Assembly (NCBI GenBank): GCA_044229845.1
Contig: JBGASG010000003.1
Coordinates: 320,001-384,000 of the forward strand
DNA from: Candidatus Obscuribacteraceae bacterium
Lineage (GTDB): Bacteria > Cyanobacteriota > Vampirovibrionia > Obscuribacterales > Obscuribacteraceae
DNA length: 64,000 nucleotides
Reading direction: 5' to 3'
In this document: in pieces, positions 21,407 to 35,237 of the stretch
Layout of the letters: each line of letters begins with the position of its first letter
Numbering within the stretch: the first letter of the stretch is position 1
The notes under the pieces: model-generated
Databases searched by the model: none
Told to the model about the DNA's origin: nothing
The model's input: the letters and a program-made list of their open reading frames with translations, nothing else
Made by a program: the position numbers and the translations under genes

Positions 21407-21447
21407 CGGCGCGTTTCGAGCTATCGAGAGCAGCGCCGCTCCCACAG

Positions 21448-21475
21448 AAAAAGCCCACCTTTCAGTGGGCTTTTT
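21448..21475. terminator. Bidirectional rho-independent terminator
   Basis: AAAAAGCCCAC-CTTTCA-GTGGGCTTTTT between convergent genes. Confidence 0.85.
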
Positions 21476-21538
21476 CCGGCTTTTTCTCCCATACAGGCGT
21501 TCAGGCGAGGACTCCTTCACACCCGTATCGAAGTCTGT

Positions 21539-22312
21539 TTAGCAGGCTTGAGCTGGCGTCAAGCTGCGAATGCTGAGCGAAGAGCTGGCGACAGATTCCG
21601 CGCACACCGAGGCGTACTGTCTTTCAGTGCTCTGCCATTTGGCTTTTACGATGCCGTTCTTGTAGATATCCTGGTGCGTCACGAACGCGATGCGCTGGCA
21701 GATGCTGGAGCCAGCCAGTTCGTTTTGAACTGCTTCTTGATGAGCATCATCGCGCGAGACAATCCAGATCATGTCGATCTCACCGCTCTCCAGCGCCTTT
21801 TCGCAGACGGCGGTCAGTTCCGCGCGATCAGCTTTCGGCTGGTTGATGATACCGATACGGTGATCTACACCATTGCGGTTAAAAGAGATCTTGGCATCAA
21901 TTGCCGTCGTGCCGGGAACCGCTTTCGTGGTTGTCCAAGCGACATTGCTGATCAACCCGTCCTTTTGGTCGACCAGGAAGAGCATGCGAAGATTAGCCAC
22001 TTCCAGAAGGTGGCGCTGGCTGTCGCAGTTGCCCAGGTCGATGTCGGTGCTCTGTGCAGTCAACAACTCGCGCGTCATCGGCGAGAGCATATACACAAGC
22101 GGTTTCGTGGGGGTTGTCCACCACGGAAGTTTGCCGCCGTGCCGTTCGCACAGGAGGTAATCGAGGTAGAAGAGTTTGCGTAGACGGTCGCGGATCAATA
22201 CCGGTTTATCGTCGCAAGAGATAAACCAGGCGATGTGTTTTTCGAGGAGAACTTGATGCTCTTCAATCAGTTTGAAGATCATCATGTCTCTGTCGCTTAG
22301 TTGAATGGCCAT
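21539..22312 (-). CDS. Replication-relaxation (Replic_Relax)-like winged-helix protein with a degenerate nuclease region
   Basis: LSDRD..I.K.I.EH..L...HI......RDRLRKL....YL...P.VY.LS...HLL.VA follows the Replic_Relax N-terminal pattern. Confidence 0.55.
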   Translation of the reverse strand: MAIQLSDRDMMIFKLIEEHQVLLEKHIAWFISCDDKPVLIRDRLRKLFYLDYLLCERHGGKLPWWTTPTKPLVYMLSPMTRELLTAQSTDIDLGNCDSQRHLLEVANLRMLFLVDQKDGLISNVAWTTTKAVPGTTAIDAKISFNRNGVDHRIGIINQPKADRAELTAVCEKALESGEIDMIWIVSRDDAHQEAVQNELAGSSICQRIAFVTHQDIYKNGIVKAKWQSTERQYASVCAESVASSSLSIRSLTPAQAC

Positions 22313-22422: not shown

Positions 22423-23118
22423 TCATAGGTTAGGATCACGTGTTGTGTATTGCAAAAGTGCATCATCATGACGCGGTTGGTGAAGGTTGTAAGTGACTCT
22501 CATTTTGGAATCCATCATTTTTAGAGAGCGATATTGCTGTCTGAGCCCTTCGACACGGGTATGAATTTCTTCCAGCGAGGCTTGCAGTTCTTCTTGAGTC
22601 TTGGCCGCCTTGCGTGGGCGAATCATATCTTCGAAAACCGCAGCGGAATCGTCGTACCAGTCCGCCATGTTCTGCATGTAGACTGTGCTTTCCGGCATTC
22701 CATTGCAGGGCGGCATCGAACGAATGGTCTTAGCTAGCAGACGGTATCTCTTCGCGATTCCGGCAGCAGTGCGCGACCATTCCATGACCCGCTCGACTTC
22801 TTGATTGAGCGGCTTTTTCATAATCACGGCTTCGCTGACCGTCACTTTGTAGTGACCAACAGCGTCGTCATAGGCTTCCATCCACTCCAACGGTTTCGAT
22901 TGCGGAGTTACTCGCGGCATGACCCACGGGGGAGTCGGACGCTTGTAGGTGTTGGCAGCAGCATTCGGCACAGGTGCCGTGGTGCGGTTGAAAACGTCTC
23001 CTTTTTGTTGCGGATGACCGCCGTTCGGCTGCGTCGCTTGCGCCATGGAGGAGGCGAAAGTGGTGGCAGCGAAGATGGCGCTGGTCAATGCAATTTGGAT
23101 ACGTTTCGTGGCTGTCAT
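22423..23118 (-). CDS. Hypothetical exported helical protein
   Basis: Signal peptide ending MAQA; Pro-rich linker; helical C-terminal region. Confidence 0.75.
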   Translation of the reverse strand: MTATKRIQIALTSAIFAATTFASSMAQATQPNGGHPQQKGDVFNRTTAPVPNAAANTYKRPTPPWVMPRVTPQSKPLEWMEAYDDAVGHYKVTVSEAVIMKKPLNQEVERVMEWSRTAAGIAKRYRLLAKTIRSMPPCNGMPESTVYMQNMADWYDDSAAVFEDMIRPRKAAKTQEELQASLEEIHTRVEGLRQQYRSLKMMDSKMRVTYNLHQPRHDDALLQYTTRDPNL

Positions 23119-23185: not shown

Positions 23186-24673
23186 TTACGGTCCTGGGTT
23201 CGCTGGTCCACCCGGGTTCGCTGGTCCTGCTGGTCCTGCTGGTCCTGCTGGAGCCGGTCCCGGATTGGTCGGCGGAAGGAACGGTCCACCCGGTCCACCA
23301 CCGCCCGGTCCTGGAATGTTCATGCGCGTGCCGTCTTGGTACTGCGCCCAGGTGTCAGTAGAGTTGAAATCAAAGGTGTTCATCTGGACGATCTTCCAGA
23401 TGGTGTAGCCGGCGAGCAGGAGGAGCAAACCACCGACTGCACCGATGACTCGCGAACCGCCGTACGGGCTGCCGAAGACCATCGACCACGCTGCCAGAGC
23501 AACGATGATGGTGGCCATAACGACGCCCAGGATAACCAGATAGCGAGAGAAGACTCTTACTGTCGGGAGCGGTCCCATGAAGTCATATTTTGGTTGTTGT
23601 TTTTGACGGTTGAGTTGGGTGTCTTGTTCGCCGTTGGCTCCAGCTTTGGCTCCGCCGTTGTTAACGATGCCGAGACCATTGTTGTTGCCGCCGTTGTTGA
23701 CGACTTGTTGTCCGCCGTTGCCGCCGCCGAAGTCGTTCTGACGTGTGCCACCATTGCCGGCACCACCTTCGAACTGACCGTTGCCGCCGTTGCCGGCACC
23801 ACTTTCAAATACGCCGCGTCCGCCGTTGCCCTGGCCGCCTTCGAACAGTCCCTGACCGCCGTTGCCGCCACCGCCTTCGAACACGCCTTGACCGCCGTTA
23901 CCAGCGCCGCCTTCGAAGAAACCACGGCCACCGTTGCCCTGACCGCCTTCGAACGTGCCGCGACCGCCATTGCCCTGGCCGCCTTCGAACAGTCCTTGAC
24001 CGCCATTGCCGGCGCCGCCTTCGAACATGCCCTGACCGCCGTTGCCATAGCCACCTTCAAAGGTGCCTTTGCCATTGTTGCCCCAGCCGCCTTCGAAGAG
24101 TCCCTGTCCGCCGTTGCCGGCGCCGTTTTCATACTTGCCCTGACCGCCGTTGCCGTAGCCGGGTTCGTAGGTGTTTTTGCCGCCGTTGCCCCAGCCGCCT
24201 TCGTAGAGACCTTGACCGTTGATCGGCGCGCCGTTTTCATACACACCGTCCATTTGACCGTGTTGTGTTTGATAACGACCGTAGTTGTTGATGACTGGAC
24301 CTTTGGTGCCCGGGGCGCCACGGGTTCCGAAAATGTTGCCGTGTGTCGGATCGGCAAAGCTGGACGGAGGCAAGCTCGAAGCGCCTTGATCGCCGGGAAT
24401 GACACGCGGAGCCATGGAGCCATCGCCGACCGGCGGCGGTTGTCCTTGCGGAGCAGCTTGGTTAGGACGCTGCCAGGAAGCACCATGGATCAAAGGAGTA
24501 CGCAATGTCGATTGTTGCGTCGGACCGGACAAGCATGGCTTGGTCGGGTTGTACAGCATCTCGGCATATTCAGCGCGAGCGGTTGTCGGTGCGAACAGCA
24601 TCACCACACCAGTGATGATCAGGCTGATCGCCGTCAACGCTTGTTTTACTCCAACTCTATCCTTGCCTGACAT
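23186..24673 (-). CDS. Exported Gly/Asn-rich 12-aa repeat protein with a C-terminal two-TM hairpin (TrbC/VirB2 pilin-like)
   Basis: AGGAGA RBS, signal peptide ending ARA, 14 xFEGGxGNGGxG repeats, two hydrophobic helices, Pro/Gly tail. Confidence 0.8.
   Translation of the reverse strand: MSGKDRVGVKQALTAISLIITGVVMLFAPTTARAEYAEMLYNPTKPCLSGPTQQSTLRTPLIHGASWQRPNQAAPQGQPPPVGDGSMAPRVIPGDQGASSLPPSSFADPTHGNIFGTRGAPGTKGPVINNYGRYQTQHGQMDGVYENGAPINGQGLYEGGWGNGGKNTYEPGYGNGGQGKYENGAGNGGQGLFEGGWGNNGKGTFEGGYGNGGQGMFEGGAGNGGQGLFEGGQGNGGRGTFEGGQGNGGRGFFEGGAGNGGQGVFEGGGGNGGQGLFEGGQGNGGRGVFESGAGNGGNGQFEGGAGNGGTRQNDFGGGNGGQQVVNNGGNNNGLGIVNNGGAKAGANGEQDTQLNRQKQQPKYDFMGPLPTVRVFSRYLVILGVVMATIIVALAAWSMVFGSPYGGSRVIGAVGGLLLLLAGYTIWKIVQMNTFDFNSTDTWAQYQDGTRMNIPGPGGGGPGGPFLPPTNPGPAPAGPAGPAGPANPGGPANPGP
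23741..24244 (-). repeat. Coding tandem repeat, 14 x 36 nt, plus about 3 degenerate units down to ~23633
   Basis: Units such as LFEGGQGNGGRG and MFEGGAGNGGQG. Confidence 0.9.
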
Positions 24674-24686
24674 TATGTGGTCTCTC

Positions 24687-27600
24687 CTATGAGTCCTGAT
24701 TGTGATTGTCAGAATTGCCATCTTCCTTTTTGGCAGGCGCGACGGTCACCGTCTGGGTGAGTTGCGCAAGTTGTCGCGAGAGCGACGCGAGTTCACTGAT
24801 CGACGGGAAGTCGAGCATCTCGTCGGATTCATCGGCCCAGAGGCTGGCGGCCAGCGATCTGGCGACATCCTGGGCGGTGGAAGGAGCTTCAGTCGCCGGA
24901 ACTTGCAGTTCTTCAGCGTGCACCACTTCCGGTTCTACTTGTTCGGCGCAGGGGATGCCCTGAGCGGCAGCACCAATTACGGTGGCTTCGGGTTCCAGCC
25001 CCATTGGTTGCACCAGTTCGGCCAACTCTTCCAGAGTTTCTGGGCTCATTTCGAGCATCGCCGGATCCATCACGTCTTTCTCGGCACGAGCCGGCATGTC
25101 GGTGAGGATGTCGGTTGTTTGTTCGCTGATGAATGCATCGAGCAGGTCGGAAGAAACCGGTTCGTCTTCGATATCGTCGATGAGCGGCTCCATGGACATT
25201 TCGAATTTGGTTTTGACGGCGCCCTTGGCGTTGGTGACGGAGGTGATGATCGGTGCCGTCGGCGTCGGGCGCACGACAGGCTCGTAATCGCCAGCCGGAA
25301 TCTCGATGATGTTTCTGCCTTCTTCTTCGAATTGAGCAACTTTGGAGACCATGTACTCTTCTTCGAGCGACTTGGCAGCGGCTTCGCGAGCGTCTTTCTC
25401 GGCAGCCTCTTCTTGGGCTTCGACGTATTTGCCCAGAGTCACTTCCAGACCGAGACCGCGCAGTTCGCAGCACAGTCCGTCGAAAGCAGCGGTGCGTCCG
25501 CCGGCGGTGACTTCCTTGCCTTGCACCATATCGGCATAAGCTTGATGGCGGCCTTGAATGTCATCGGACTTGATGGTCATCATTTCGTGCAGCAGGTGCG
25601 AGGCGCCGTAGGCTTGAATTGCCCAGACTTCCATTTCGCCCATGCGCTGTCCGCCGTGGTTGGCTTTGCCGCCGACCGGCTGTTGTGTAACAGCGGCGTA
25701 CGGTCCGCCCAATCCGGAGCGGGCATTGATTTTGTGCAGAACCAACTGGTTGAGCTTCAGCATGTACTGTCTGCCGACCAGGACCGGCGAGTCGAAAGCT
25801 TCGCCTGTTCTGCCGTCAAACAATTGCACTTTGCCGGATTCGGTAACCCACTCATAGCCGGGCAGTTTGCGCACTTCGGCAAGAGCTTGGGTGACGAGCT
25901 TGAAGGAAGCATCTTTTTCCAGCGATTCGTCGAACTGGTGAATGCGATAGTGACGATTGAGGATGCTGGAATAAAGACCTAGTTGTGTGTCGAATACTTG
26001 ACCGACGTTCATACGGCTGGGGACGCCCAGTGGATTCAACACGATGTCGCACGGAGTGCCGTCCGGCAGGTAAGGCATGTCTTGATCAGGAACTACGATC
26101 GAGACGATACCTTTGTTGCCGTGGCGTCCAGCCAGCTTGTCGCCGACTTCGAGCGGGCACAAACGCGCGATAAGTACTTCGATTTCGCAGATGATGCCAG
26201 CTTTCAATTCCGGTGTGGTTTCCGGTGTGAAGATGCGGACATCGATAACGCGACCACCCGAGCCGTGCGGAACACGCAGGCTGCTGTCAGCCATTTCTTC
26301 CGCCACTTTACCGAAGATAGCTTGCAAGAGTTCTTCTTCAGCGGAGAGAGCGCGAGCTTCTTTCGGGCTCAATTTGGCGACGAGAATATCGCCCGGGTTG
26401 ACGTAGCTGCCGACCATGGCGATGCCGCGTTCGTCGAGATGCTCGAGGTCTTTACCGGCGACGTTCGGCAGTTCCGGCGTCAGAATTTCTGGTCCGCGCA
26501 GGGTCTGGTGAACACCGATGGAGTGCTTTTCGATTTCGATGTGCGAAAGTTTGTGGTCGCGGATCAAACCTTGACGGACGACAATCGCGTCTTCGAAGTT
26601 GTAGCCGTTCCATGGCACGAAGGCGACGAGAAGGTTTCTTCCCAGAGCCAGTTCGCCTTGATCGATACCAGGACCATCAGCGATGATCTGTCCGGCTTCG
26701 ACGCGATCGCCCTGTCTGACGATCGGGCGCTGGTCGAGAATTGTGTTCTGGTTGGTGCGGTCGAAGCGAATCATGTTGTAGGTGCGCGATTCGCCGGAAG
26801 CTTGGGTGATGACGATCTGATCGCCGTTGACCAGGCTGACAGTACCGGCGCGACGGGCGACGACTGAGTGACCGGACGAGCGAGCGACGATTTTTTCCAT
26901 GCCGGTGCCGACGCGCGGACGTTCCGGCTTGATCAAAGGCAGAGTTTGGCGCATCATGCCGCCACCCATGAGAGCGCGGTTGGCGTCATCATGCTCGAGG
27001 AAAGGAATGAGAGCCGATCCGACCGAGATGAAACCTTGCGGAGCAATACCGATCATGTCTACTTGATCTGGTGTCACTTCGAAGAACTGTTCGCCGCAGC
27101 GTGCCGAAACGAACGGTCCTTGAATCATGTCGTTTTCGACTTTGGTGTCGGGCGGTGCAAGCGTGAAACGCTTGTCGTCTGATGGTGTCAGGTAACGGAC
27201 TTCATTGGTCACATGTCCGTTTTGCACGACGCGATAGGGAACGGTCATGAAGCCGTCGTCATCGATACGGCAGTAGGTTGCCAGATATGCCACCATACCG
27301 CAGTTTTTACCTTCAGGCGATTCCACCAGGCACACGCGACCGATTTGCGAAGGATGCACATCGCGCATTTCGTTCGGAGCGGCGTTCGGGTCGATGCCAC
27401 CAGGACCGAAGGAGGTGATTCTTCTTCTGTGCGACAGTTCGGAAAGTGGGTTCTGTTGGTCGAGGTATTGAACCAGGGGGTTGCCGGCGAAGAACTTGCT
27501 CATGGCATTGACGAACGGGCGCGAATCGACGAAATCATTGGCGCTGCCGATTTCATCTTCTTCGAACAGTTCGAGGCGGGTGCGAATCGAGCGCGACATT

Positions 27601-28598
27601 TGTGCCAGCGCCGGACGCAGCCCCTTGGTCATCACATCGCCGATACCGCGCAGGTGGCGGTTTTCCAAGCTGTCGATATTATCTGTTTGTCCAGAGCCGA
27701 GCGGCAAAAGCAGAATGTATTCGATAGCAGCAAGAATATCTTCAGCGGTCAGTTGCGAAGAGCGCTCTTCCAGACGCAGCTTATCGTTGAAGCGGCGACG
27801 ACCGAGCGAACCGAGTGAATAACGACGTTTGTCGGTGAGTTCTTTCAGGGCAGCATGACCGGATTGCGAACCGCCGCCACCATCTGGTTTCCACGCGCGA
27901 CCGACGACGGAAAGCGCTTCTTGCTGAGTGACTTGTTTCCACTCGATGCGATTCTTTTCCAGAAGCGGAGCGAGACGTTTTTGAATGGTGGACAGTTCGA
28001 CGCCCATGGCGGTCAACACTGTGGTGGCAGCCACCCAACCACGTTTGGGCAATTTGATACGGCATTTGGCGCGGCTGGTTTTGCCACTGCCGGTTTCCAG
28101 ATCCAGTTCGACGGAGACCGGAGCGCCGAGTTCAGCCAGGATAAGAGCTTTGTAGAGCATCGGGTTGTTCATTTGGAAATAGACGCCTGGTGCACGCACC
28201 AGTTGTCCGAGGACGACGCGCTCGGAACCGTTGATGACGAAGGTTCCACGATCGGTGATCACCGGCAGGTCGCCCATGTAAGCAGTCGACTTGCGCAGTT
28301 CGTTGGTTTGCAGGTCACGCAGCCACACATCCATGAGCAGGCGACGGGCATGCGTCATGTTAGTCTTGCGAGCTTGCTCGGCAGAACTGGGATAACCGGA
28401 ATCAACTGCATAATCTTCGAACTTCCAGTGAGCTTTGCCGTCGGGTCCGACGAACGAAAGTTCAAGGCGCGGATTGAATTCGCTGGCAATCGGAGAGATT
28501 TCAGCGAAGAGGGCGCCCAGGGTTTCTTCCAGAAAACGTCGGTATGAACGTCTCGGGAATTCTGCCAGATCTGGAGGCTGGAAGTAGAAGTTACTCAT
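24687..28598 (-). CDS. rpoB: Divergent DNA-directed RNA polymerase beta-subunit homolog (probable second copy) with an acidic C-terminal extension
   Basis: GTFVINGSERV, PFLEHDDANRALMG, GYNFEDAI, GDKLAGRHGNKG, LNPLGVPSRMNVGQ, GGQRMGEMEVWA, TIKSDD; no rpoC adjacent. Confidence 0.95.
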   Translation of the reverse strand: MSNFYFQPPDLAEFPRRSYRRFLEETLGALFAEISPIASEFNPRLELSFVGPDGKAHWKFEDYAVDSGYPSSAEQARKTNMTHARRLLMDVWLRDLQTNELRKSTAYMGDLPVITDRGTFVINGSERVVLGQLVRAPGVYFQMNNPMLYKALILAELGAPVSVELDLETGSGKTSRAKCRIKLPKRGWVAATTVLTAMGVELSTIQKRLAPLLEKNRIEWKQVTQQEALSVVGRAWKPDGGGGSQSGHAALKELTDKRRYSLGSLGRRRFNDKLRLEERSSQLTAEDILAAIEYILLLPLGSGQTDNIDSLENRHLRGIGDVMTKGLRPALAQMSRSIRTRLELFEEDEIGSANDFVDSRPFVNAMSKFFAGNPLVQYLDQQNPLSELSHRRRITSFGPGGIDPNAAPNEMRDVHPSQIGRVCLVESPEGKNCGMVAYLATYCRIDDDGFMTVPYRVVQNGHVTNEVRYLTPSDDKRFTLAPPDTKVENDMIQGPFVSARCGEQFFEVTPDQVDMIGIAPQGFISVGSALIPFLEHDDANRALMGGGMMRQTLPLIKPERPRVGTGMEKIVARSSGHSVVARRAGTVSLVNGDQIVITQASGESRTYNMIRFDRTNQNTILDQRPIVRQGDRVEAGQIIADGPGIDQGELALGRNLLVAFVPWNGYNFEDAIVVRQGLIRDHKLSHIEIEKHSIGVHQTLRGPEILTPELPNVAGKDLEHLDERGIAMVGSYVNPGDILVAKLSPKEARALSAEEELLQAIFGKVAEEMADSSLRVPHGSGGRVIDVRIFTPETTPELKAGIICEIEVLIARLCPLEVGDKLAGRHGNKGIVSIVVPDQDMPYLPDGTPCDIVLNPLGVPSRMNVGQVFDTQLGLYSSILNRHYRIHQFDESLEKDASFKLVTQALAEVRKLPGYEWVTESGKVQLFDGRTGEAFDSPVLVGRQYMLKLNQLVLHKINARSGLGGPYAAVTQQPVGGKANHGGQRMGEMEVWAIQAYGASHLLHEMMTIKSDDIQGRHQAYADMVQGKEVTAGGRTAAFDGLCCELRGLGLEVTLGKYVEAQEEAAEKDAREAAAKSLEEEYMVSKVAQFEEEGRNIIEIPAGDYEPVVRPTPTAPIITSVTNAKGAVKTKFEMSMEPLIDDIEDEPVSSDLLDAFISEQTTDILTDMPARAEKDVMDPAMLEMSPETLEELAELVQPMGLEPEATVIGAAAQGIPCAEQVEPEVVHAEELQVPATEAPSTAQDVARSLAASLWADESDEMLDFPSISELASLSRQLAQLTQTVTVAPAKKEDGNSDNHNQDS

Positions 28599-30697
28599 TA
28601 CTTAGCCACCTCGACATCGCCATTACCGCTCACCATGGAGCGTTTGTGAATCGCAAGCGCCCGGGCCAGGTCTTCGGCGTAAGCGCGATTTGCTGGTTCG
28701 AGAGCAGACGCGATCCGGAATTCAGAGATTGCATCAGCGATGCGACCGGCGGCCAGCATGTTGACGGCCAGGCGGTGGTGCACTTCGCTGTTTTGAAGGA
28801 ACTTAGCGGCCACGCCTTGCAGGATGCTGATGGCTTGGTCGTAGTTCTTGTCGCCTTCGGCTTGCGCAGCTTTCGAAATCGCTTCGGCGACTTGGCTGTT
28901 TGCTGAGTTTGCTGCGTTCGGCTTCTGGGCGGCTTGCTGTTGAGCAGCCAGAGCTTGTTGTTGGCGAGCTTGCTGCTGTTGGGCGGCGATTGCTTGTTGC
29001 TGGGCAGCCACGGCTTGCTGTTGCATCATTTGCTGTTGCGACATTTGCTGCGGCATGGCGCCGGCAGCCGGCATTGACTCGTTGTGCGTGCGCAGACCAT
29101 ACTGGTTGCCGGCCATTTGCATGCCGTTACCGCCTTCGAACACGTTCTTTTGCGGAACGGGCGGCGGGTAGGCAGCTTGTTGCTGCATCGGTTGCTGCTG
29201 TTGCACTTGCGGTTGTTGCATTTGCTGCTGCTGTTGCTGCTGCATTTGCACCATTTGCTGAGAAACGCTTTGTTGCGGCTGAGCGAGTTGGCTGGCCACT
29301 TGATTGACTTGCGGAATCTGCATACCGCGATTCTTCATGCCCGACTGCATTTCGCGCATGCGAGCAGCGGCTTCGCGGTTGTTTTCGGGATCGATAAGCA
29401 CGCAGGTCAGGTAGGCCTGGTAGGCACCTTGGTAGTCGCCATTGGACTCGAGGGTTTCGCCCATCAGGAATTGATACTTGGCGTTGCGGGGCTCCATCAT
29501 CACAGCCTGAGTGATTTCAGCGAGAGCTTCGCGGCGCAGACCTTGACCAAAGAATGTTTCGGCGGCGGCTTTGTGCTTTTCGGCGGAAGCGTGCTGGAGA
29601 GCTTTTTGCAGGCTGGCACGACCGGAAGGCAGACCAGGATGTTTGGGATCGAGAGCTTCCAGTTTGCGGTATTCATTGTCGGCACCAGCGAAGTCGCCGG
29701 TCAATTGCAGGGCGCCAGCCAGACCGAGGTGGTTTTCGGCGAGCAATGGATTTTGTGCCACTTGCCGGCGCCAAATTTCAACCAGTTGTTGACCAGCGGC
29801 GGCATCGCGCGGATCGCAGATGACTGCTTTGCGCAGCGAAGCACCAGCGCCGGTGTAGTCTTTTTGAGCCAGAGCCAGCATGCCCAGTTGGCGATGGGCT
29901 GGTCCGAAGTTGGGATCTTTGATCAGAGCTTGTCTATACCAGTTGGTGGCGGTGGTCAATTGACCATAACGCAGAGCCATATCGCCGACTTTGACGAAAG
30001 TGCGAGCCGTGGGCTCGATTTGCATGGCGGCCTGGTATTCAATAGATGCGCCTTCGAAGTCGCCGACAGCAGCCAGTTGGTCGCCGGTGGCGATTCTGGT
30101 CTCGGCGTTGTTGGGGTCACGACCCATCTTCTTAAGGGCTTCACCGAGCAAACGACCAGCCAGTCCGTTGTCTGGAGCGGCGGCGAGGGCTTGGCGGAAA
30201 AGGTTGGCCGCGGTGTTGAAGTCGCGGGCGTTCAGTCTTTCTTGACCGTAGGCGCAACGCGCTGCCGAAAGGTTGATTTTGTATTGCTTGTTGCTGGGCT
30301 CGTACTTGCAGGCTTCTTCGTGAGCAGCAATCGACTCGGACCAGCGACCTGCTTTTCCGAGTGACACACCTTTATTGTTTTGTTCGAGGGCGTACTGGAC
30401 GCGACGCTTGAAGTTGTCGCCGACGGCTTGTTGTTCTTTGGCTGCCTTTTCTTCAGCCGCTTTCTTAGCTTCTTCAGCAGCTTTCTTCTTTTCGGCTTCG
30501 ACAACACGGTAGTCGGGACGGCGCTGGAATCCGCTCACTACCGGAGCGCTGGTCTGACCTTCTTCGAAATTCTTCAGGTCGCGCTCGCGGGGCAGCGGCT
30601 GGGCGTTCATCTTGGTGGCATGCGCCGGGATGAACATCGTGCCCGAGAGCGTGGTGGCGAGAAGGAGAGTTGCTGCGATGGGTCGAACTTTGTGCAT
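28598..30697 (-). CDS. Exported multi-TPR protein with a Gln-rich low-complexity region
   Basis: Signal peptide MHKVRPIAATLLLATT...PAHA; many TPR motifs; poly-Q/QA tract; stop overlaps the rpoB ATG (TAATG). Confidence 0.85.
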   Translation of the reverse strand: MHKVRPIAATLLLATTLSGTMFIPAHATKMNAQPLPRERDLKNFEEGQTSAPVVSGFQRRPDYRVVEAEKKKAAEEAKKAAEEKAAKEQQAVGDNFKRRVQYALEQNNKGVSLGKAGRWSESIAAHEEACKYEPSNKQYKINLSAARCAYGQERLNARDFNTAANLFRQALAAAPDNGLAGRLLGEALKKMGRDPNNAETRIATGDQLAAVGDFEGASIEYQAAMQIEPTARTFVKVGDMALRYGQLTTATNWYRQALIKDPNFGPAHRQLGMLALAQKDYTGAGASLRKAVICDPRDAAAGQQLVEIWRRQVAQNPLLAENHLGLAGALQLTGDFAGADNEYRKLEALDPKHPGLPSGRASLQKALQHASAEKHKAAAETFFGQGLRREALAEITQAVMMEPRNAKYQFLMGETLESNGDYQGAYQAYLTCVLIDPENNREAAARMREMQSGMKNRGMQIPQVNQVASQLAQPQQSVSQQMVQMQQQQQQQMQQPQVQQQQPMQQQAAYPPPVPQKNVFEGGNGMQMAGNQYGLRTHNESMPAAGAMPQQMSQQQMMQQQAVAAQQQAIAAQQQQARQQQALAAQQQAAQKPNAANSANSQVAEAISKAAQAEGDKNYDQAISILQGVAAKFLQNSEVHHRLAVNMLAAGRIADAISEFRIASALEPANRAYAEDLARALAIHKRSMVSGNGDVEVAK

Positions 30698-30889
30698 CGT
30701 GGTGGAAGAACCGTGCCGGTGGCGAACTGTGAGCACAGCTTAACGATGCGGGGGGTATGCGGTCTATTGGGGTTTGTCCCACGGCATTCGTAAATCTCCC
30801 ATGCCGGATAAAATCGCGCCCCATGGGCGTTCACCCGCCGTTTTGAGTTGCGTAAAAACCGCAAGATTTCGCGTGTCGGGATGACAGAC

Positions 30890-32695
30890 TTAGCGCAAGG
30901 TCTGCAAAACGGTCGGGCGAGCCAGAACAGTGTCAGATCCAAATGGCTGTTGTTTGTTTCGTACGTCGACTGTAGGCAGAGGCGGGACCAGGTGGTTATT
31001 TTCTTCATCGCAAGCGAACCCGGCCATGTGTTGAGCATCGAACACAGGTTCTGCATATCGGGGCTCGCTTGTTTCCTCCCCTACCAGAACCGGGTGGGAC
31101 ATGGTCTTGGTCATAGCGTATTCGATATCTGCCATGGACATCGCGGGTGCAGGTGGACAGGTTCCTGGGTCCGGCACGTTTGCTTCTCTAGTTTTAAGAG
31201 CTGATGGAGTAGTGATAGCCGGTAAATTAGAAACAGGGTCAGCCTGTCTTTCAGGGAAAGCGTCTTGCTCATAGTTCTGGTTAGGACTCCACCCCACCAG
31301 TGCCGGCACGATCGACGCGCTGGCGTCGGCGGGCAGACCCTTCCCATGTTCAGGCATAAAACCGTGAATAGGCTGGCGGTCGTGAGCAATGAGCTGGTAG
31401 GGGTCGGCCATCGCCGAGGGCTTGCCGGACGGCGCCGGGGTGACAGGCTGGGGCGGCGTCGGGGTGTTTTCCTGCTCTTCGATTTGCTGGCGCAGCTGTT
31501 CCAGGGTACTGGTCAACGCCTGCTTCGCCGCAGACACGCGCATACCAAAATACATGCGGAAGTCCATGCCGCTGAGACCGGGAGTGCGACCCGCCTTCAT
31601 GTTCCAGATGGGCTCAGCGCGAGCAAAGACTTGGAAGCCGGGAATTTGTCTGAACAGTCTGCGAGCAATCTCGAAATCAGAGATCATAGTGTAATTATTC
31701 TTGGGGATGGTGGCATGTTCGCGAAATGGTTCGCGGAAGTTCTGCACGAAGGTGGAGGTGGCCGAGAACGTCCATCCACCACGTTGATGCACCATACCCC
31801 AAGTGTAAAAGGGGTCTATTTCCCGGTTTGGAGATTTGAAATAGCCGGTGCCGCGCAACTGCAAGAGACAATTGGCAAACACCACCGTATTTGGTGGCGT
31901 AGTCAGAACGCGAGTAGCGGTGATGCCGGGCAAAAAGTCGAACAATGGCAGCTGATTGGTCTGCCAGAGATCGCGGAACTGCATTTCGACTTGAACGTTC
32001 GAACGGCTGCCGATCGGGAAGTCGTGCTGCACAGCCGTCGTCACTGAGTTGATATTGGTGTTGAGCTTGATGTTGTGGGCCAGCGAATCTCGCAGGAAGA
32101 AATAGTTGACGTAAGCCCGAGTACGCGGCGTGAAAGTCCATCCCGCAGTAACGTTGGGCAAGATACGGAAGACCGTATCTTCGCGGCTGGCGAGAGCCAA
32201 AATGCTCGACACTTGATTTTTCTGGAATGCCGAAAGGCGGAAAAAGTCATTGCCCTGCGGCAAGGTGGTGATCAAGTTGCGCTTGGTAGGAAACTGGAAA
32301 ACGTTGGTTTCGACACGCACCGATGTTTCGGCGGTGCCGGTCAGATAGAGCCGGGAAGGCAGAGCTTGCAACAATCGCAACTGGAGATTTTCTCCGACCG
32401 TCATACGATTGCCGAGCGACTGAGCCGGCAAAGTATCGGTCGGCAAGATGGTCGTGCCAGTGGGCGCCTGCACGTTGGGCAGGTCGACACGGGGAGCGGG
32501 AGTTGTAGTTGTAGGAGGGGCGATCTGCGCCACCGCCGGCGAAGCCACAAAACCGGCCAGCAAAATGCCGATAGTGCTTGCGCGCTTCACCACGTCATCT
32601 GTCAGCCGAGGGGCTATTTTTCTCGCCGATGCCACCGGGTTACCCATTAGTAAGCGATCGCTCCCAGCAGCCCTCGCTAGTGCTCTTTGGAACAC
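30890..32695 (-). CDS. Putative outer-membrane beta-barrel protein with a Pro-rich C-terminal extension; true start probably 32593-32647
   Basis: Signal-like ILLAGFVASPAVA; alternating amphipathic strands with aromatic residues (PNVTAGWTF, AYVNYFF, PFYTWGMV, FRMYFGMRV). Confidence 0.55.
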   Translation of the reverse strand: MFQRALARAAGSDRLLMGNPVASARKIAPRLTDDVVKRASTIGILLAGFVASPAVAQIAPPTTTTPAPRVDLPNVQAPTGTTILPTDTLPAQSLGNRMTVGENLQLRLLQALPSRLYLTGTAETSVRVETNVFQFPTKRNLITTLPQGNDFFRLSAFQKNQVSSILALASREDTVFRILPNVTAGWTFTPRTRAYVNYFFLRDSLAHNIKLNTNINSVTTAVQHDFPIGSRSNVQVEMQFRDLWQTNQLPLFDFLPGITATRVLTTPPNTVVFANCLLQLRGTGYFKSPNREIDPFYTWGMVHQRGGWTFSATSTFVQNFREPFREHATIPKNNYTMISDFEIARRLFRQIPGFQVFARAEPIWNMKAGRTPGLSGMDFRMYFGMRVSAAKQALTSTLEQLRQQIEEQENTPTPPQPVTPAPSGKPSAMADPYQLIAHDRQPIHGFMPEHGKGLPADASASIVPALVGWSPNQNYEQDAFPERQADPVSNLPAITTPSALKTREANVPDPGTCPPAPAMSMADIEYAMTKTMSHPVLVGEETSEPRYAEPVFDAQHMAGFACDEENNHLVPPLPTVDVRNKQQPFGSDTVLARPTVLQTLR

Positions 32696-33256
32696 AGCCG
32701 TGAACTACACTGGGAGCAATCCTACATGTCGTCCTGTGTAGAAGCAAGACGTTATCATTGACCTCCTCACTTTCTTGAGAGGAAAGTGATCCCGACTCGG
32801 AGTCCGACATGAACGCCGACACGGTGGGTTCCTGCTTCATCGAGGTTGCCAGAATTTCTGGTCTTAAGTCCTCTCCACAGGCTCATCGGGCGAGCCCCGC
32901 CCTGCAGTCCCTGCGTGGTTCAGCAGGGACCATACATACGTATCTCATAGTTGAGTTTCCGTTTGCAACTCCAGTTTCTAACTGCCGACTCCGCCGGCGG
33001 TGCTCTCTCCTCCATCGCGCCCCTGAACTCAATGGTCAAGATGTAGCTGAGAGAATCCGATGACTGATATCGTTCGAATAGCCATCTGTGTTTGAGAAAG
33101 CGGCGAATCAGGTATGTACTTGACGGGGTTTCCAGATTCCCGTAACGTAGCGGGCAAGACATTTTCAGGAATTCCGCCGTCGGCCGCAGCGGCGTTGTTA
33201 CAATAGAGCGGTGACTACCAAAGACGAAGTTCGTCTAAATCTTATCCGGAGCAACT

Positions 33257-34108
33257 TTGGAAACTATTCCGACCGGCAGTCAGCCTCGACCGACGGTATT
33301 CCGTCCGAAAACAGTCATCTGCGAAAGACATGAACTGATTCGCTTTGGCTTGAAGCGGGTGGTATCGGAGGTGCTCGAGATTGTCGGCGAAGCTTCCGAC
33401 GGCATGGCTGCCACCGAGGTGATTCGCCGGTTGCAACCGCATTTCGTCATACTCGACGTCGACCTGGATATTCTCAACGGCGTTGAAGTAGCGCGCCGGG
33501 TGTCGCAAGAATTTCCCAACAGCAACATCCTCTGCCTGACTGATTCTTATCACGCCACCAAATATCACAACCAGCTCATCCGCTCTGGTGTGCGCGGCTT
33601 CTGCCTGAAGAGTTCAGGACCGCGCACGCTGTTCGAAGCCATCGAACAGGTAACTCGCGGATTGCCTTATTGCGACCCGAAGATCACACAGTTGGTCAAG
33701 CAAACGCCATCGAATGCGATGCCCAACACCAACCTCACGGATCGCGAAATCGAAGTCTTGATTCGTCTGGATTTGCGCAACAAAGAAATCGCCGAAGAAC
33801 TGGACATGAAGCTGCGCACGGTGGAGAAACATATCGAGTGCATCCTGGCAAAACTGAAGGTTCCCACTCGCACGGCGGCTGCACTTAAAGCTGTGCAGTT
33901 GGGTTATGTGCTCTTGCCGAAGATGCCCGGCCGCGACCCGGTGACCGGCGTCACTTACGAGCAGACTGTCGCCGAACTGCAGGCCGAACTGGCCATCGCC
34001 AACGAGCACTTGAAGGCACTTTTGAAGCAAAACGAACTCCTGAAAGACGCGTTGCACGATCGGATGCGGCAGCAGCAGAACAAACCGCCGGACAATCCGT
34101 CGACATAG
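33257..34108 (+). CDS. NarL/LuxR-family response regulator
   Basis: REC domain (IVGEASDG, VILDVDL) plus LTDREIEVL...NKEIAEEL....RTVEKH HTH; GGAG RBS and TTG start. Confidence 0.92.
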   Translation: METIPTGSQPRPTVFRPKTVICERHELIRFGLKRVVSEVLEIVGEASDGMAATEVIRRLQPHFVILDVDLDILNGVEVARRVSQEFPNSNILCLTDSYHATKYHNQLIRSGVRGFCLKSSGPRTLFEAIEQVTRGLPYCDPKITQLVKQTPSNAMPNTNLTDREIEVLIRLDLRNKEIAEELDMKLRTVEKHIECILAKLKVPTRTAAALKAVQLGYVLLPKMPGRDPVTGVTYEQTVAELQAELAIANEHLKALLKQNELLKDALHDRMRQQQNKPPDNPST

Positions 34109-34226: not shown

Positions 34227-35237
34227 GTGAAGATCGCGCATATCGCGGCGGTACTGATTTCTGTCTCTTTTGCCACGTGTCCCAAGCTGGCCATCGGCAA
34301 AGAGATGTCTTCCAACGGGCATTTTCAGATCGCCGGCAAAACCAGTCGCACCATTCAGAAATACACCGGACTGACTTGGGTCGGAAACCATCTGGTTAGC
34401 GCCGGAGCCGGTCTGGCACTGAAGTCCAGGCTCGGCGGCAAAGTAAAAGTAAAAGCACGCAGCTACAGTTTCACCGACATGCTGCAAGGCAAATTCGAAA
34501 CTGTCGAAGTGCACATGAAAAACTCCAAAGTCAAAGGAATTCCGATGGGTACGGTGATCGCCCGCACAGACCAGCCTGTCAAGGTTCGGTACTTCAAAAA
34601 GAATGGTCAGCGGGCCGGGGTTGAGACACCAGTTCTGGTATCACTGTCCGGGTCAATAAATGAAGAGCAAGTGACGCGCGCTCTCAACTCGAAAGAGATA
34701 TCGCAAGTCCTGAGAATTCTCAAACTGGACCTACCTGGACTTGGCGAACAGCAGCTCCAGATCTTAGATCCGGAGGTTTTGCTCGAAAAAGATCAGATTA
34801 CTTTAAAAACGGTGATGATCACAAAAGGGGCCGCGAAAGAAACCGGCGTGCCACTCACCATAGTGGCGCATCCGGTGCTGGAAGGGGATCGCCTGATTGT
34901 CCTTAAAGAGACGAAAATCGACTCCAAGATCATCGAAAAGCCAGAGCTGTTCGCCCAGTTCGCTGAGGAACTGCTCAACCCGCTCTTCGATTTCGGCCGA
35001 TTAGACAGGCAAAGCCATGCTTTGCGAGTGCAGAAATTGAATTTGTCCGACAAAGAAGTCTCATTTGATGGTAAATTGTTGCTGGCACCGAAGCCCAAAG
35101 CAGCGGCGCCGTCCCAGGCGGAAGCCAAAACAGGAAACGCCCAGGCAGGAAACAGCAATCCGCTACCACCGGCAAACAAAGCAGAAGAGACTAAACCTGT
35201 CGACGGCGGCAAGCACGTTTCCGAAAACAAAAACTAG
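34227..35237 (+). CDS. LmeA/DUF2993-family phospholipid-binding protein
   Basis: Signal peptide; DMLQGK...V.V....; INEEQVTRALNS; LLNPLFDF..LD pattern. Confidence 0.6.
   Translation: MKIAHIAAVLISVSFATCPKLAIGKEMSSNGHFQIAGKTSRTIQKYTGLTWVGNHLVSAGAGLALKSRLGGKVKVKARSYSFTDMLQGKFETVEVHMKNSKVKGIPMGTVIARTDQPVKVRYFKKNGQRAGVETPVLVSLSGSINEEQVTRALNSKEISQVLRILKLDLPGLGEQQLQILDPEVLLEKDQITLKTVMITKGAAKETGVPLTIVAHPVLEGDRLIVLKETKIDSKIIEKPELFAQFAEELLNPLFDFGRLDRQSHALRVQKLNLSDKEVSFDGKLLLAPKPKAAAPSQAEAKTGNAQAGNSNPLPPANKAEETKPVDGGKHVSENKN

What the first reader, a model, noticed from the sequence alone, without database searches (positions are those of the whole stretch)
24687..28598. Intact but strongly diverged orphan rpoB, likely a second copy
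Seen: an uninterrupted 1303-aa ORF keeps the catalytic-side motifs (NFED, GDK...GRHGNKG, PSRMN, DDANR) yet alters near-invariant ones: ALMGGGMMRQT (usually ALMG(A/S)NMQRQA), RTAAF (usually PESF), EFPRRSY (usually EIQxxS(F/Y)), and the lobe region looks shortened. Known: rpoB is almost always single copy; duplicates are described mainly in some actinomycetes and are much closer to the primary copy. Inference: an old, functionally specialised paralog.
Basis: partly seen in the sequence, partly recalled or inferred. Interest (0 to 1): 0.85.

Follow-up and report, generated by a model that had tools for sequence, protein, structure and literature searches.

The report
Diverged second RNA polymerase beta gene
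A whole family of non-photosynthetic relatives of cyanobacteria keeps, beside its normal RNA polymerase beta gene, a second, intact but very different copy in which the residues that touch the DNA fork and the first nucleotide are rebuilt, which points to a second form of the cell's transcription enzyme that nobody seems to have described.

Summary
Window 24687-28598 (-) is an intact 1303-aa rpoB homologue. It scores above NCBI's rpoB equivalog cut-offs and keeps every catalytic residue I checked.

The same genome has a canonical rpoB-rpoC1-rpoC2 operon on another contig. Its beta is only 45% identical to this copy. I found one rpoC1, one rpoC2 and one rpoA.

The diverged copy ("rpoB2") is no artefact and no recent event:
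- It occurs beside the canonical gene in at least 88 of 104 genomes of one family (source names: Candidatus Obscuribacterales / Melainabacteria), including closed single-contig genomes.
- It is under strong purifying selection (dN/dS 0.044; canonical copy 0.029).
- It forms one isolated clade on a stem of about 2.2 changes per site.

Nearly invariant residues are replaced in all copies: H1237Q, N684G, Q686M (initiating-nucleotide site), W183P and fork loop 2 (non-template-strand pocket).

rpoB2 sits in a family-wide five-gene operon, behind a conserved promoter with TGGGA repeats and beside a conserved NarL-type response regulator. Sludge metatranscriptome contigs contain it.

Best reading (inferred): a regulated alternative beta subunit that shares alpha, gamma and beta' with the canonical one and alters initiation. 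The closest precedent is the actinomycete rpoB(R)/rpoB2 pairs, which are far less diverged. My literature searches found no report of this paralog.

The parts
24687..28598 (-). rpoB2: diverged, intact RNA polymerase beta paralog (1303 aa). The core is residues 1-1060. The acidic C-terminal tail is residues 1060-1303 and carries conserved short motifs (LEIPAGDYEP, DFPS..L..LA..L).
28598..30736 (-). First gene of the operon: an exported TPR protein with a Q-rich middle part. The ORF as listed starts at GTG 30736. The likely true start is the ATG at 30697 (MHKVRP... signal peptide), because the -10-like box lies at 30737-30742. Its TAA stop shares one base with the rpoB2 ATG.
30737..30803 (-). 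Conserved upstream element of the operon: two TGGGA boxes 21 bp apart, the second part of an imperfect inverted repeat TGGGA-N4-CCCCA. It is followed by TAGAC, 18 nt and TAAGCT (-35/-10-like).
   Evidence: strict pattern in 15 of 18 upstream regions; variants in the other 3; only one exact copy in the genome
23186..24673 (-). Third gene: a membrane protein with GGxGNGGQG-FEGG glycine-rich repeats and conserved C-terminal transmembrane helices. The likely start is the ATG at 24673, 13 nt after the rpoB2 stop and behind an AGGAGAG box. The longest ORF runs to 24721.
22423..23118 (-). Fourth gene: a 231-aa protein with an N-terminal signal peptide and no known family.
21539..22312 (-). Fifth gene: a 257-aa cytoplasmic protein with a nearly invariant N-terminal 115 residues. 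It is Replic_Relax (PF13814)-like, with a restriction-endonuclease-like C-terminal fold. Its distribution among genomes matches that of rpoB2.
21447..21476 (.). GC-rich hairpin flanked by A and T runs, between the convergent gene ends. It is terminator-like and is the likely end of the operon.
33257..34108 (+). Context: a NarL/LuxR-type response regulator (REC + GerE), 80-91% identical across the family. It is divergently placed next to the operon in 15 of 19 loci. It is a candidate regulator by inference only. In this genome a 601-aa gene (30890-32695) lies in between.

Best explanation
rpoB2 is a second, functional RNA polymerase beta subunit gene. It is kept by the whole family (source names: Candidatus Obscuribacterales / Melainabacteria, i.e. 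Obscuribacteraceae-like Vampirovibrionia) in addition to the housekeeping rpoB.

Shown here:
- It is intact, family-wide, vertically kept in one conserved operon and under purifying selection as strong as on the housekeeping copy.
- All residues that beta contributes to catalysis are invariant.
- A fixed set of otherwise nearly invariant residues is replaced. They lie around the initiating-nucleotide site (H1237Q, N684G, Q686M), the non-template-strand pocket (W183P, fork loop 2 rebuilt) and the wall of the rifampicin pocket.
- The genomes searched hold only one alpha, one gamma (rpoC1) and one beta' (rpoC2).

Inferred:
- RpoB2 competes with RpoB1 for the same alpha2-gamma-beta'-omega scaffold and gives a second core enzyme.
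- In E. coli, published work shows that His1237 contacts the gamma-phosphate of the first NTP, that W183A shortens open-complex life about 5-fold, and that deleting fork loop 2 destabilises open complexes. The second enzyme should therefore differ mainly in initiation: open-complex stability, sensing of the starting nucleotide and start-site or pause recognition. It would reprogramme transcription globally, as 'stringent-like' rpoB alleles do.
- Production is switched by the operon's own conserved promoter with TGGGA repeats, probably through the neighbouring NarL-type response regulator, together with exported and membrane proteins of the same operon.
- N684G would as a side effect blunt inhibitors of the i/i+1 site.
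For: Two copies, one scaffold.
- The canonical rpoB (1189 aa) is followed by rpoC1 and rpoC2 on contig C1, and is 45% identical to rpoB2.
- The own genome has a single rpoC1, rpoC2 and rpoA.
- 5 of 5 near-complete family genomes, two of them single contigs, have a single rpoC1 and rpoA.

Distribution.
- The diverged copy is in 22 of 24 other family genomes, 1 of 3 genomes of the sister family and 0 of 13 genomes of six further families of the class.
- Matches of at least 74% identity are listed for 89 of 107 genomes of the order.
- Both copies lie on the single contig of G159 and of G181.

Isolation. 103 sequence clusters at 67-90% identity are followed by a drop to 44%. Among 1.84 billion 50% representatives there is one full-length member, then 41-45%.

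Selection. Between G000 and G001, dN/dS is 0.044 (core 0.025, tail 0.117), against 0.029 for the canonical copy.

Catalytic residues. E813, D814, K1065, K1073, R1106, R678 and D675/676 (E. coli numbering) are invariant in 103 of 103 clusters. The flap-tip LLQAIFG motif is kept.

Fixed replacements. H1237Q 103/103, Q686M 103/103, N684G 102/103, W183P 98/98 aligned, Y555I, P560L and others. Fork loop 2 changes from LTRERAGFEV to IDPNAAPNEM.

What these residues do (passages read).
- PMC3994528: His1237 and Gln688 bind the gamma-phosphate of the first NTP; residues 565, 566, 681 and 684 determine GE23077 action.
- PMC4499132: W183 stacks on the +1 non-template base; W183A gives an open-complex half-life of 0.19x; deletion of 533-546 destabilises open complexes and impairs elongation.

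Operon. TPR, rpoB2, Gly-rich membrane protein, 231-aa and 257-aa genes lie in the same order in 17-19 of 19 loci, with overlapping or abutting stops and starts. The upstream element is conserved. The response regulator is adjacent in 15 of 19 loci. The 257-aa gene is in 29 of 30 family genomes and 0 of 120 genomes of ten other families.

RNA libraries. Contigs at least 99% identical cover rpoB2 in 4 of 4 sludge or bioreactor metatranscriptome runs from 4 studies. They bridge both gene junctions: 28416-28754 and 24287-24777.

Precedent. Two rpoB genes give two polymerase forms with global effects in Nonomuraea (PMC5431353, abstract and passages).
Against: - Nothing here shows that RpoB2 protein is made or binds alpha, gamma or beta'.
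- The invariant C-terminal PESF motif is changed to TAAF, in a region that I recall as part of the clamp next to beta', while only one beta' exists.
- H1237 is 100% invariant in 157 canonical sequences. Its loss together with N684 could mean a poor or differently primed enzyme rather than a merely retuned one.
- The other operon products are exported or membrane proteins with no evident link to transcription.
- RNA-library contigs may stem from contaminating DNA, and they cannot show a transcript's ends or strand (tool caveat).
- The response-regulator link is adjacency only. The TGGGA element has no second copy in the genome above the control count.
- At the 258 columns that are at least 85% conserved, the paralogs' mismatch count (39-47) is extreme but overlaps the most aberrant canonical sequences (maximum 43, median 14).
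Confidence: 0.6

Rival explanations
1. Origin rival. rpoB2 is not an in-lineage duplicate. It is a xenolog taken up once by the family's ancestor from an unsampled, very distant lineage or mobile element, and has been kept since.
For: - In the maximum-likelihood tree (65 rows, 1067 columns, LG+C20 PMSF, quick search) the paralog clade does not nest inside the canonical Vampirovibrionia or cyanobacterial clade. It joins the branch between that clade and 20 other bacterial representatives.
- Identity to its own genome's rpoB (45%) is no higher than to rpoBs of other phyla (41-46%).
- The last gene of the operon is Replic_Relax-like, a family that I recall as typical of plasmids and integrative elements (for the likeness; the habitat of the family is recalled).
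Against: - Holding the paralogs together with the canonical genes of the same order costs only 7.9 log-likelihood units (p-AU 0.223), so a duplication is not rejected.
- No donor-like sequence exists among 1.84 billion representatives.
- The best solved-structure matches are the three cyanobacterial betas, aligned end to end without large gaps (8syi_C, 914 bits, query 6-1067 against chain 12-1069).
- The lobe span is 182 residues against 183 in all 43 genes of the phylum. Only 11 of 114 others lie within 178-190.
- Four signature columns are shared with Vampirovibrionia only, against 0-2 for control clades. This is weak.
- A very long branch is expected to be pulled to the deep part of a tree.
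Confidence: 0.3
2. Function rival. rpoB2 is mainly a drug-insensitive spare beta subunit that lets the cell transcribe in the presence of natural RNA polymerase inhibitors, as proposed for actinomycete rpoB(R)/rpoB2.
For: - N684, a determinant of GE23077 action ([Lys684]beta is resistant), is Gly in 102 of 103 clusters.
- Many fixed changes line the rifampicin-pocket region: S512V, L533F, T563S, L571M, I572V, P567K.
- The actinomycete precedent is discussed as a way to cohabit with producers of polymerase inhibitors (PMC5431353 passages).
Against: - The main rifamycin determinants are kept: Q513, D516, H526 and R529 are unchanged and S531 is only Thr. The actinomycete copies carry H526N and S531Y.
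- E565, G566 and M681 of the GE23077 site are kept.
- A resistance role does not explain W183P, the rebuilt fork loop 2, H1237Q, the 240-aa tail with conserved motifs, or the operon with exported proteins.
- No biosynthetic genes lie in the neighbourhood.
Confidence: 0.2
3. RpoB2 no longer works in a polymerase. It is a decoy, scaffold or regulator that binds nucleic acid or polymerase partners without catalysis.
For: The universally invariant His1237 and the nearly invariant N684, Q686 and Q659 are lost. The PESF motif at the C-terminus is changed. A long tail carries short conserved motifs typical of docking sites.
Against: - All residues that beta gives to the active centre and NTP site are invariant in 103 of 103 clusters: E813/D814, K1065, K1073, R1106, R678.
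- 207 of 258 conserved columns are kept.
- dN/dS of the core is 0.025. That level of constraint over the whole 1060-residue core is hard to explain without the enzyme's full set of contacts.
Confidence: 0.07
4. Artefact: contamination or mis-binning of a foreign rpoB, or a decaying pseudogene.
For: The genome is a 22-contig assembly rated 88% complete with 2.35% contamination. Some bins show extra copies: G007 has two and G198 gives four matches.
Against: - Both copies lie on the same single-contig genome in G159 and in G181.
- The flanks hold ordinary chromosomal genes in conserved order: pyrF, cdaA and lysA on one side.
- The frame is open in all 19 loci and under purifying selection.
Confidence: 0.01

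Closest known systems
Actinomycete rpoB pairs: Nonomuraea gerenzanensis rpoB(S)/rpoB(R), Nocardia farcinica rpoB/rpoB2 (PMC5431353; abstract and passages read)
   Same: A second rpoB beside the housekeeping one with a single beta', so that two forms of the core enzyme are expected. The changes sit in the region around the rifampicin pocket. The second form is proposed to give a global, 'stringent-like' switch of transcription under stress.
   Different: - The actinomycete copies are described as wild-type and 'mutant-type' alleles whose key differences are single substitutions (H526N, S531Y). Here H526 is kept and S531 is Thr.
- Here identity to the primary copy is 45%.
- Here residues outside that region are replaced: H1237, N684, W183 and fork loop 2.
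- Here the copy is universal in a whole family rather than scattered among strains, and it sits in a conserved operon with exported proteins.
Canonical cyanobacterial-type beta subunit (solved: 8syi_C, 8h3v_A, 8gzg_C)
   Same: Best solved matches, aligned end to end (914, 888 and 886 bits). Same compact architecture without the large lineage-specific inserts. All Pfam Rpb2 domains are present.
   Different: It is not next to rpoC1/rpoC2. About 45% identity, although the canonical genes of the whole phylum are mostly 66-74% identical to this genome's own. 51 of 258 conserved columns are altered, against 14 of 249 in the family's canonical genes. It has an extra tail of about 240 aa.
Engineered E. 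coli CRE-pocket mutants (W183A, deletion 533-546; PMC4499132, passages read) and i-site variants ([Lys684]beta; PMC3994528, passages read)
   Same: The same positions are changed. The mutants give a functional picture of what such changes do: shorter-lived open complexes, altered elongation and pausing, and resistance to an i-site inhibitor.
   Different: Those are single laboratory changes in the only beta subunit. Here a natural protein combines many of them, fixed over a whole family, beside an unaltered copy.

Membership tests
Bacterial RNA polymerase beta subunit (RpoB; NCBIfam NF001616 / TIGR02013; Pfam Rpb2 domains) | Score above the curated equivalog cut-offs | tested here: met
   NF001616: 1078 bits against a cut-off of 896. 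TIGR02013: 1034 bits against 801.
Bacterial RNA polymerase beta subunit (RpoB; NCBIfam NF001616 / TIGR02013; Pfam Rpb2 domains) | Full domain set: protrusion, lobe, fork, external 1, hybrid-binding/flap, clamp | tested here: met
   PF04563, PF04561, PF04565, PF10385, PF00562 and PF04560 all match. PF04563 scores only 25.8 bits, under its 28.2-bit cut-off. The alignment with 8syi_C runs end to end.
Bacterial RNA polymerase beta subunit (RpoB; NCBIfam NF001616 / TIGR02013; Pfam Rpb2 domains) | Active-centre and NTP-site residues given by beta (E813, D814, K1065, K1073, R1106, R678; E. coli numbering; the list is partly recalled, and K1065/K1073 are confirmed in PMC3994528) | tested here: met
   Invariant in 103 of 103 clusters of the clade.
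Bacterial RNA polymerase beta subunit (RpoB; NCBIfam NF001616 / TIGR02013; Pfam Rpb2 domains) | The universally conserved residues of the initiating-nucleotide site and the non-template-strand pocket (H1237, N684, W183, fork loop 2) | tested here: not met
   H1237Q, N684G, Q686M, W183P, and fork loop 2 LTRERAGFEV changed to IDPNAAPNEM. H1237 is 100% conserved and N684 97% conserved in 157 canonical sequences.
Bacterial RNA polymerase beta subunit (RpoB; NCBIfam NF001616 / TIGR02013; Pfam Rpb2 domains) | Gene next to rpoC (rpoC1/rpoC2 in this phylum) | tested here: not met
   The neighbours are a TPR gene and a glycine-rich membrane protein gene. The rpoB-rpoC1-rpoC2 operon is on contig C1.
Bacterial RNA polymerase beta subunit (RpoB; NCBIfam NF001616 / TIGR02013; Pfam Rpb2 domains) | Assembles with alpha2, beta' and omega into an active core | not testable with these tools
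   Only indirect: the genomes hold a single alpha, gamma and beta', and the whole core is under constraint.
Actinomycete-type second rpoB (rpoB(R) / rpoB2) | Second rpoB beside a housekeeping rpoB in one genome | tested here: met
Actinomycete-type second rpoB (rpoB(R) / rpoB2) | Rifamycin/sorangicin-resistance substitutions H526N and S531Y in the rif clusters (PMC5431353 passages) | tested here: not met
   H526 is kept and S531 is Thr in all 20 paralogs aligned.
Actinomycete-type second rpoB (rpoB(R) / rpoB2) | Close 'polymorphic' copy of the primary gene | tested here: not met
   45% identity to the primary copy and a stem of 2.2 changes per site. The identity of the actinomycete pairs was not given in the passages I read.
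Actinomycete-type second rpoB (rpoB(R) / rpoB2) | Condition-dependent expression with a global effect on transcription | not tested
   Only presence in RNA-library contigs and a conserved private promoter.

The most novel reading that the evidence does not exclude
RpoB2 does not just retune the housekeeping enzyme. It creates a polymerase with a different way of starting RNA chains or a different substrate. It has lost the His that holds the triphosphate of the first NTP, the Asn of the i/i+1 site, the Trp that stacks on the +1 non-template base and both arginines of fork loop 2, yet it keeps every catalytic residue. Such an enzyme could start with primers or non-canonical initiating nucleotides, or work on templates other than a normal melted promoter (single-stranded or RNA templates). 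The 257-aa Replic_Relax-like protein, which has exactly the same distribution, could act as its DNA-targeting factor. That would be a second class of cellular multisubunit transcription machinery in a bacterium.
Probability: 0.15. Interest if true: 0.92.

Novelty: new variant of a known kind. Interest (0 to 1): 0.75.

Why it matters
Bacteria are taught to have one RNA polymerase core. The only accepted exceptions are a few actinomycetes with two nearly alike rpoB alleles.

Here a whole family of widespread sludge, soil and water bacteria, sister to the cyanobacteria, has kept for a very long time a second beta subunit. It differs from the first as much as betas of different phyla differ. Precisely the residues that textbooks call invariant are replaced: the initiating-nucleotide His1237 and Asn684, the CRE tryptophan and fork loop 2.

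If it assembles with the shared subunits, it is a natural experiment on which beta contacts are dispensable for RNA synthesis. It would also be a mode of global gene control by subunit exchange outside the sigma paradigm.

There is a practical side too. rpoB is used as a single-copy phylogenetic and amplicon marker, and both copies pass the equivalog cut-off. Obscuribacterales genomes will therefore give double or misleading rpoB signals.

Tried and rejected
- Complex prediction of RpoB2 (residues 1-460 and 1040-1303) with the 257-aa operon protein gave no answer (score 0.00, controls not run). It is not used either way.
- The AlphaFold2 model of the RpoB2 core from 19 close paralogs failed (mean pLDDT 42, pTM 0.27). 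No fold search was made on it.
I repeated it with residues 1-1075.
- PADLOC gave 0 hits for 6 operon and neighbour proteins. PHROGs gave only weak hits of unknown function. There is no sign of a defence or phage module.
- A search of the own genome for further copies of the TGGGA-N5-CCCAATAG operator found 1 exact copy (the operon's own) and 2 with one mismatch, against 2 for the reversed control. No regulon could be defined.
- The stretch 30907-33174 has almost no cover in the four RNA libraries.
- Signature-residue and shared-indel counts meant to settle the origin gave 4 columns shared with Vampirovibrionia, 0-2 in controls and no shared indel block. This is too weak to decide.
- I considered the reading 'rifamycin-resistant spare copy' and put it low, because H526, D516, Q513 and R529 are kept.
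- Earlier notes of this scan: none for this genome. The 8 look-alike notes concern other topics.
- Literature searches for a report of this paralog found none (Obscuribacter/Melainabacteria/Vampirovibrionia with rpoB or RNA polymerase; 'rpoB paralog', 'second rpoB', 'two rpoB', 'rpoB duplication', 'duplicated rpoB', 'rpoB2'). The library holds only open-access papers and preprints.
- In PMC8047818 and the preprint 10.64898/2026.08.25.746930, which came up in those searches, the passages I read mention no second rpoB in these bacteria.

Full report
THE OBSERVATION

Window 24687-28598 (minus strand) is one open frame of 1303 codons, from ATG to TAG. It matches all Pfam domains of the beta subunit: Rpb2 domains 6, 3, 7, 2, 45 and 1, with E from 2.4e-98 to 8.8e-06. 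Domain 1 lies just under its cut-off. It passes both NCBIfam rpoB equivalog models: 1078 bits against a cut-off of 896, and 1034 against 801.

So are the motifs listed as altered: ALMGGGMMRQT, RTAAF and EFPRRSY.

The 'shortened lobe' is not a peculiarity. Between E. coli positions 140 and 443 the paralogs have 182 residues (18 of 20). All 43 canonical genes of the phylum have 183-188, and E. coli has 303.

A SECOND COPY IN THE SAME GENOME

The window is contig C18 of a 5.16-Mb, 22-contig assembly rated 88% complete. The same genome has another rpoB on contig C1 (1189 aa), 45% identical to the finding. It is directly followed by rpoC1 (599 aa) and rpoC2 (1245 aa), the split beta' typical of the cyanobacterial phylum.

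Searches of the genome with Pfam families of beta' (PF04997, PF00623, PF04998) and of alpha (PF01000) find one gene each. Five of five near-complete genomes of the family, two of them single contigs, also have one rpoC1 and one rpoA. These bacteria therefore have two betas but one alpha, one gamma and one beta'.

WHO HAS IT

Names that public sources give to the close homologues are 'Candidatus Obscuribacterales', 'Candidatus Melainabacteria' and 'Candidatus Obscuribacter sp.'.

- Among 40 relatives, the diverged copy (72-98% identical) stands beside a canonical copy (43-46% to the query) in 22 of 24 other genomes of the family. The two exceptions are 58% and 85% complete.
- It is found in 1 of 3 genomes of the sister family, there on a 4.5-kb contig, so its membership in that bin is unsure.
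- It is found in 0 of 13 genomes of six further families of the class.
- Across the order, rows of at least 74% identity are listed for 89 of 107 genomes. This is a lower bound, because 52 matches were not listed.
- In the single-contig genomes G159 and G181 both copies lie on the same chromosome.
- In a sample of 120 other genomes of the phylum searched with the canonical protein, nothing like the diverged copy appeared. Their genes are mostly 66-74% identical to this genome's canonical one. Lower or multiple rows are pieces of split or fragmented genes, with two unclear fragment cases (G108, G150).

Among 5.8 billion clustered proteins the clade has 103 clusters at 67-90% identity, and then identity falls to 44%. 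Among 1.84 billion representatives at 50% identity it collapses to one full-length member and one fragment, followed by ordinary rpoBs at 41-45%.

SELECTION AND RATE

Between this genome and its congener (dS about 0.18-0.20), dN/dS is 0.044 for rpoB2: 0.025 for residues 1-1070 and 0.117 for the tail. It is 0.029 for the canonical gene. For five more distant genome pairs, dN of rpoB2 is 1.6-2.2 times that of the canonical gene. The copy is strongly constrained but evolves about twice as fast as the housekeeping gene.

ORIGIN

A maximum-likelihood tree was built from 65 rows and 1067 columns under LG+C20+F+G4 by PMSF, with a quick search. I chose the rows: 10 paralogs, 17 canonical Vampirovibrionia, 14 other members of the phylum and 24 representatives of other bacteria taken from the top.

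- The paralogs form one clade (SH-aLRT 100) on a stem of 2.2 changes per site.
- The clade joins the branch between the cyanobacterial-phylum clade and 20 other bacteria. It is not inside Vampirovibrionia.
- With such a stem, attraction to deep branches is expected.
- The best tree that holds the paralogs together with the canonical genes of the same order is only 7.9 log-likelihood units worse (p-AU 0.223), so an in-lineage duplication is not rejected.

Mild support for an in-phylum origin comes from three results. The three best solved-structure matches are cyanobacterial betas aligned end to end. The lobe span is identical. Four residues are shared only with Vampirovibrionia, against 0-2 for control clades.

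I rate duplication followed by a burst of change as more likely than ancient transfer, but the question is open.

WHAT IS KEPT AND WHAT IS CHANGED

I aligned 20 paralogs with 157 canonical sequences: 43 of the phylum, 113 representatives and E. coli for numbering.

- Of 133 columns with one residue in at least 95% of canonical sequences, 121 are kept and 12 altered.
- Of 258 columns at the 85% level, 207 are kept, 34 are fixed to another residue and 17 are mixed.
- The family's own canonical genes alter 14 of 249 such columns.
- The paralogs' mismatch count (39-47) lies at the extreme of the canonical range (median 14, maximum 43).

The residues that beta gives to catalysis and NTP binding are invariant in all 103 clusters: E813, D814, K1065, K1073, R1106, R678 and D675/676. 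This list is partly from memory; K1065 and K1073 are confirmed in PMC3994528. The flap-tip motif LLQAIFG is kept.

The fixed changes cluster in a few places:
- H1237Q (103/103), H1244N, and the neighbouring VDDK changed to VLHK.
- N684G (102/103), Q686M (103/103), Q659G.
- W183P.
- R452H and G449E.
- Fork loop 2, LTRERAGFEV changed to IDPNAAPNEM.
- The wall of the rifampicin pocket: S512V, L533F, H554Q, Y555I, P560L, T563S, P567K, L571M.
- S830H and E1114D.
- C-terminal PESF changed to TAAF.

D446, R451, E546, Q688, E565, G566 and M681 are kept, as are the main rifamycin contacts Q513, D516, H526 and R529. S531 is Thr.

WHAT THOSE POSITIONS DO

This rests on passages I read, not on whole papers.

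In PMC3994528 the gamma-phosphate of the first initiating NTP binds Gln688 and His1237, and the alpha-phosphate binds Lys1065 and Lys1073. Residues 565, 566, 681 and 684 are the determinant for the i/i+1-site inhibitor GE23077, and [Lys684]beta is resistant.

In PMC4499132 the pocket for the non-template strand is made of residues about 440-455 and 535-555 (fork loop 2). W183 stacks on the +1 base. W183A cuts the open-complex half-life to 0.19. Deleting 533-546 destabilises open complexes and strongly impairs elongation.

RpoB2 thus keeps the chemistry. It changes the parts that hold the first nucleotide and the downstream fork, which are the levers that set promoter-complex life time and initiation.

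CONTEXT

In 17-19 of 19 loci from other genomes the same five genes lie in the same order on one strand:
- an exported TPR protein;
- rpoB2;
- a membrane protein with glycine-rich repeats;
- a 231-aa protein with a signal peptide;
- a 257-aa cytoplasmic protein.

The TPR stop overlaps the rpoB2 start by 4 nt in most genomes and by 1 nt here (TAATG). The next gene's likely ATG follows the rpoB2 stop after 13 nt, behind an AGGAGAG box. A terminator-like hairpin follows the fifth gene.

The 257-aa protein has a nearly invariant N-terminal 115 residues. It is Replic_Relax-like by language-model features (0.95) and by structure (TM 0.70). Its confident C-terminal half resembles restriction-endonuclease folds: PaqCI, BamHI and FokI at E 5e-4 to 3e-2, with low TM-scores. 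It has the same distribution as rpoB2: 29 of 30 family genomes, and 0 of 120 genomes of ten other families of the class.

Upstream of the TPR gene a DNA element is conserved across the family. It consists of TGGGA-N16-TGGGA, the second box being part of TGGGA-N4-CCCCA, followed by TAGAC, about 18 nt and TAAGCT. The strict pattern is found in 15 of 18 upstream regions, and the other three carry variants. In the window it lies at 30737-30803. This places the true TPR start at the ATG of 30697 and puts the promoter between the operon and the 601-aa gene upstream. The genome holds no second copy above the control count.

A NarL/LuxR-type response regulator, 80-91% identical across the family, lies divergently next to the operon in 15 of 19 loci. 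In three of the other four the contig ends at most about 1.5 kb upstream of, or inside, the TPR gene. That it binds the TGGGA repeats is my inference.

EXPRESSION

Seventeen RNA-library runs of sludge and bioreactor samples hold part of the stretch. I laid four of them, from four studies. Contigs at least 99% identical cover rpoB2 and the other operon genes in 4 of 4. Single contigs bridge the TPR/rpoB2 junction (28416-28754) and the rpoB2/next-gene junction (24287-24777). By the tool's caveat, contigs cannot prove transcription, strand or ends, and DNA may be present in such libraries.

READING

Shown: a real, ancient, selected second beta gene with an intact catalytic set, rebuilt initiation and fork contacts, a private conserved operon and promoter, and no second beta' or alpha.

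Inferred (confidence about 0.6): RpoB2 replaces RpoB1 on the shared scaffold when the operon is switched on. This gives a core enzyme with different open-complex stability and first-nucleotide handling, and so a global shift of transcription. Insensitivity to i-site inhibitors would be a side effect.

Rivals:
- ancient transfer as the origin (0.3; this concerns origin only);
- mainly a drug-insensitive spare copy (0.2);
- a non-catalytic decoy (0.07);
- an artefact (0.01).

The boldest reading the data leave open is an enzyme with a different mode of initiation or a different template, perhaps guided by the co-distributed Replic_Relax-like protein (0.15).

COMPARISON AND NOVELTY

The closest known case is the pair of rpoB genes of some actinomycetes (PMC5431353; abstract and passages). 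There the second copy carries H526N and S531Y and acts as a 'mutant-type', stringent-like polymerase. The present gene fails those defining substitutions, is far more diverged, is universal in a family and has its own operon.

I found no paper that mentions a second rpoB in Melainabacteria, Vampirovibrionia or Obscuribacter (searches; passages of PMC8047818 and of preprint 10.64898/2026.08.25.746930). The library covers open-access papers and preprints only. Public annotation calls both copies simply 'DNA-directed RNA polymerase subunit beta'.

I class it as a new variant of a known kind and score interest at 0.75.

Noticed in passing
window 21539-22312 (-): The 257-aa last gene of the operon is Replic_Relax (PF13814)-like by atlas features and structure. 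Pfam itself gives no hit. Its first 115 residues are almost invariant across the family, more conserved than rpoB2 itself. It occurs in 29 of 30 family genomes and 0 of 120 genomes of ten other families.
   Followed up: partly
window 30737-30803 (-): A family-wide conserved upstream element with two TGGGA boxes 21 bp apart and a TAGAC-18-TAAGCT promoter-like pair. There is only one copy in the genome.
   Followed up: partly
window 23186-24721 (-): A membrane protein with about ten tandem glycine-rich units (GGxGNGGQG.FEGG) and a proline-rich tail. Only the C-terminal transmembrane part is conserved in other genomes, and the repeat number varies (277-522 aa). It has no known family.
   Followed up: partly
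G007:C50:255-3755 and G007:C21:133881-137435; G198 (4 matches): One bin holds two full-length diverged copies, both 78% identical to the query. Another bin gives four rpoB matches. Contamination is rated 8% (G007) and 5% (G198), so these may be two strains in one bin or a further duplication.
   Followed up: no
G027:C92 (locus L033): The only diverged copy outside the family lies on a 4.5-kb contig of a 76%-complete bin of the sister family. The two better genomes of that family lack it and also lack the 257-aa gene. It branches at the base of the paralog clade.
   Followed up: no
L003:11732-15301 (canonical rpoB, G000 contig C1): The canonical beta of this family also carries an acidic, low-complexity C-terminal extension of about 100 residues (1189 aa, against about 1100 in most of the phylum).
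   Followed up: no
window 4436-11140 (+) and 11876-14971 (+): Two large RHS-repeat proteins. The 2234-aa one has an N-terminal C39 peptidase domain and a LysM domain. This looks like a secreted polymorphic-toxin-type locus.
   Followed up: no
window 30890-32695 (-): A 601-aa gene of no known family sits between the operon's promoter and the response regulator. It is present only in this genus and in one other genome (G013) of the 19 loci.
   Followed up: no
window 34227-38057: A conserved neighbourhood lies on the regulator's side: a 336-aa unknown protein, a GerMN-domain protein, pyrF, and on the other strand a CdaA-type diadenylate cyclase and lysA. The order is kept in 8-15 of 19 loci.
   Followed up: no
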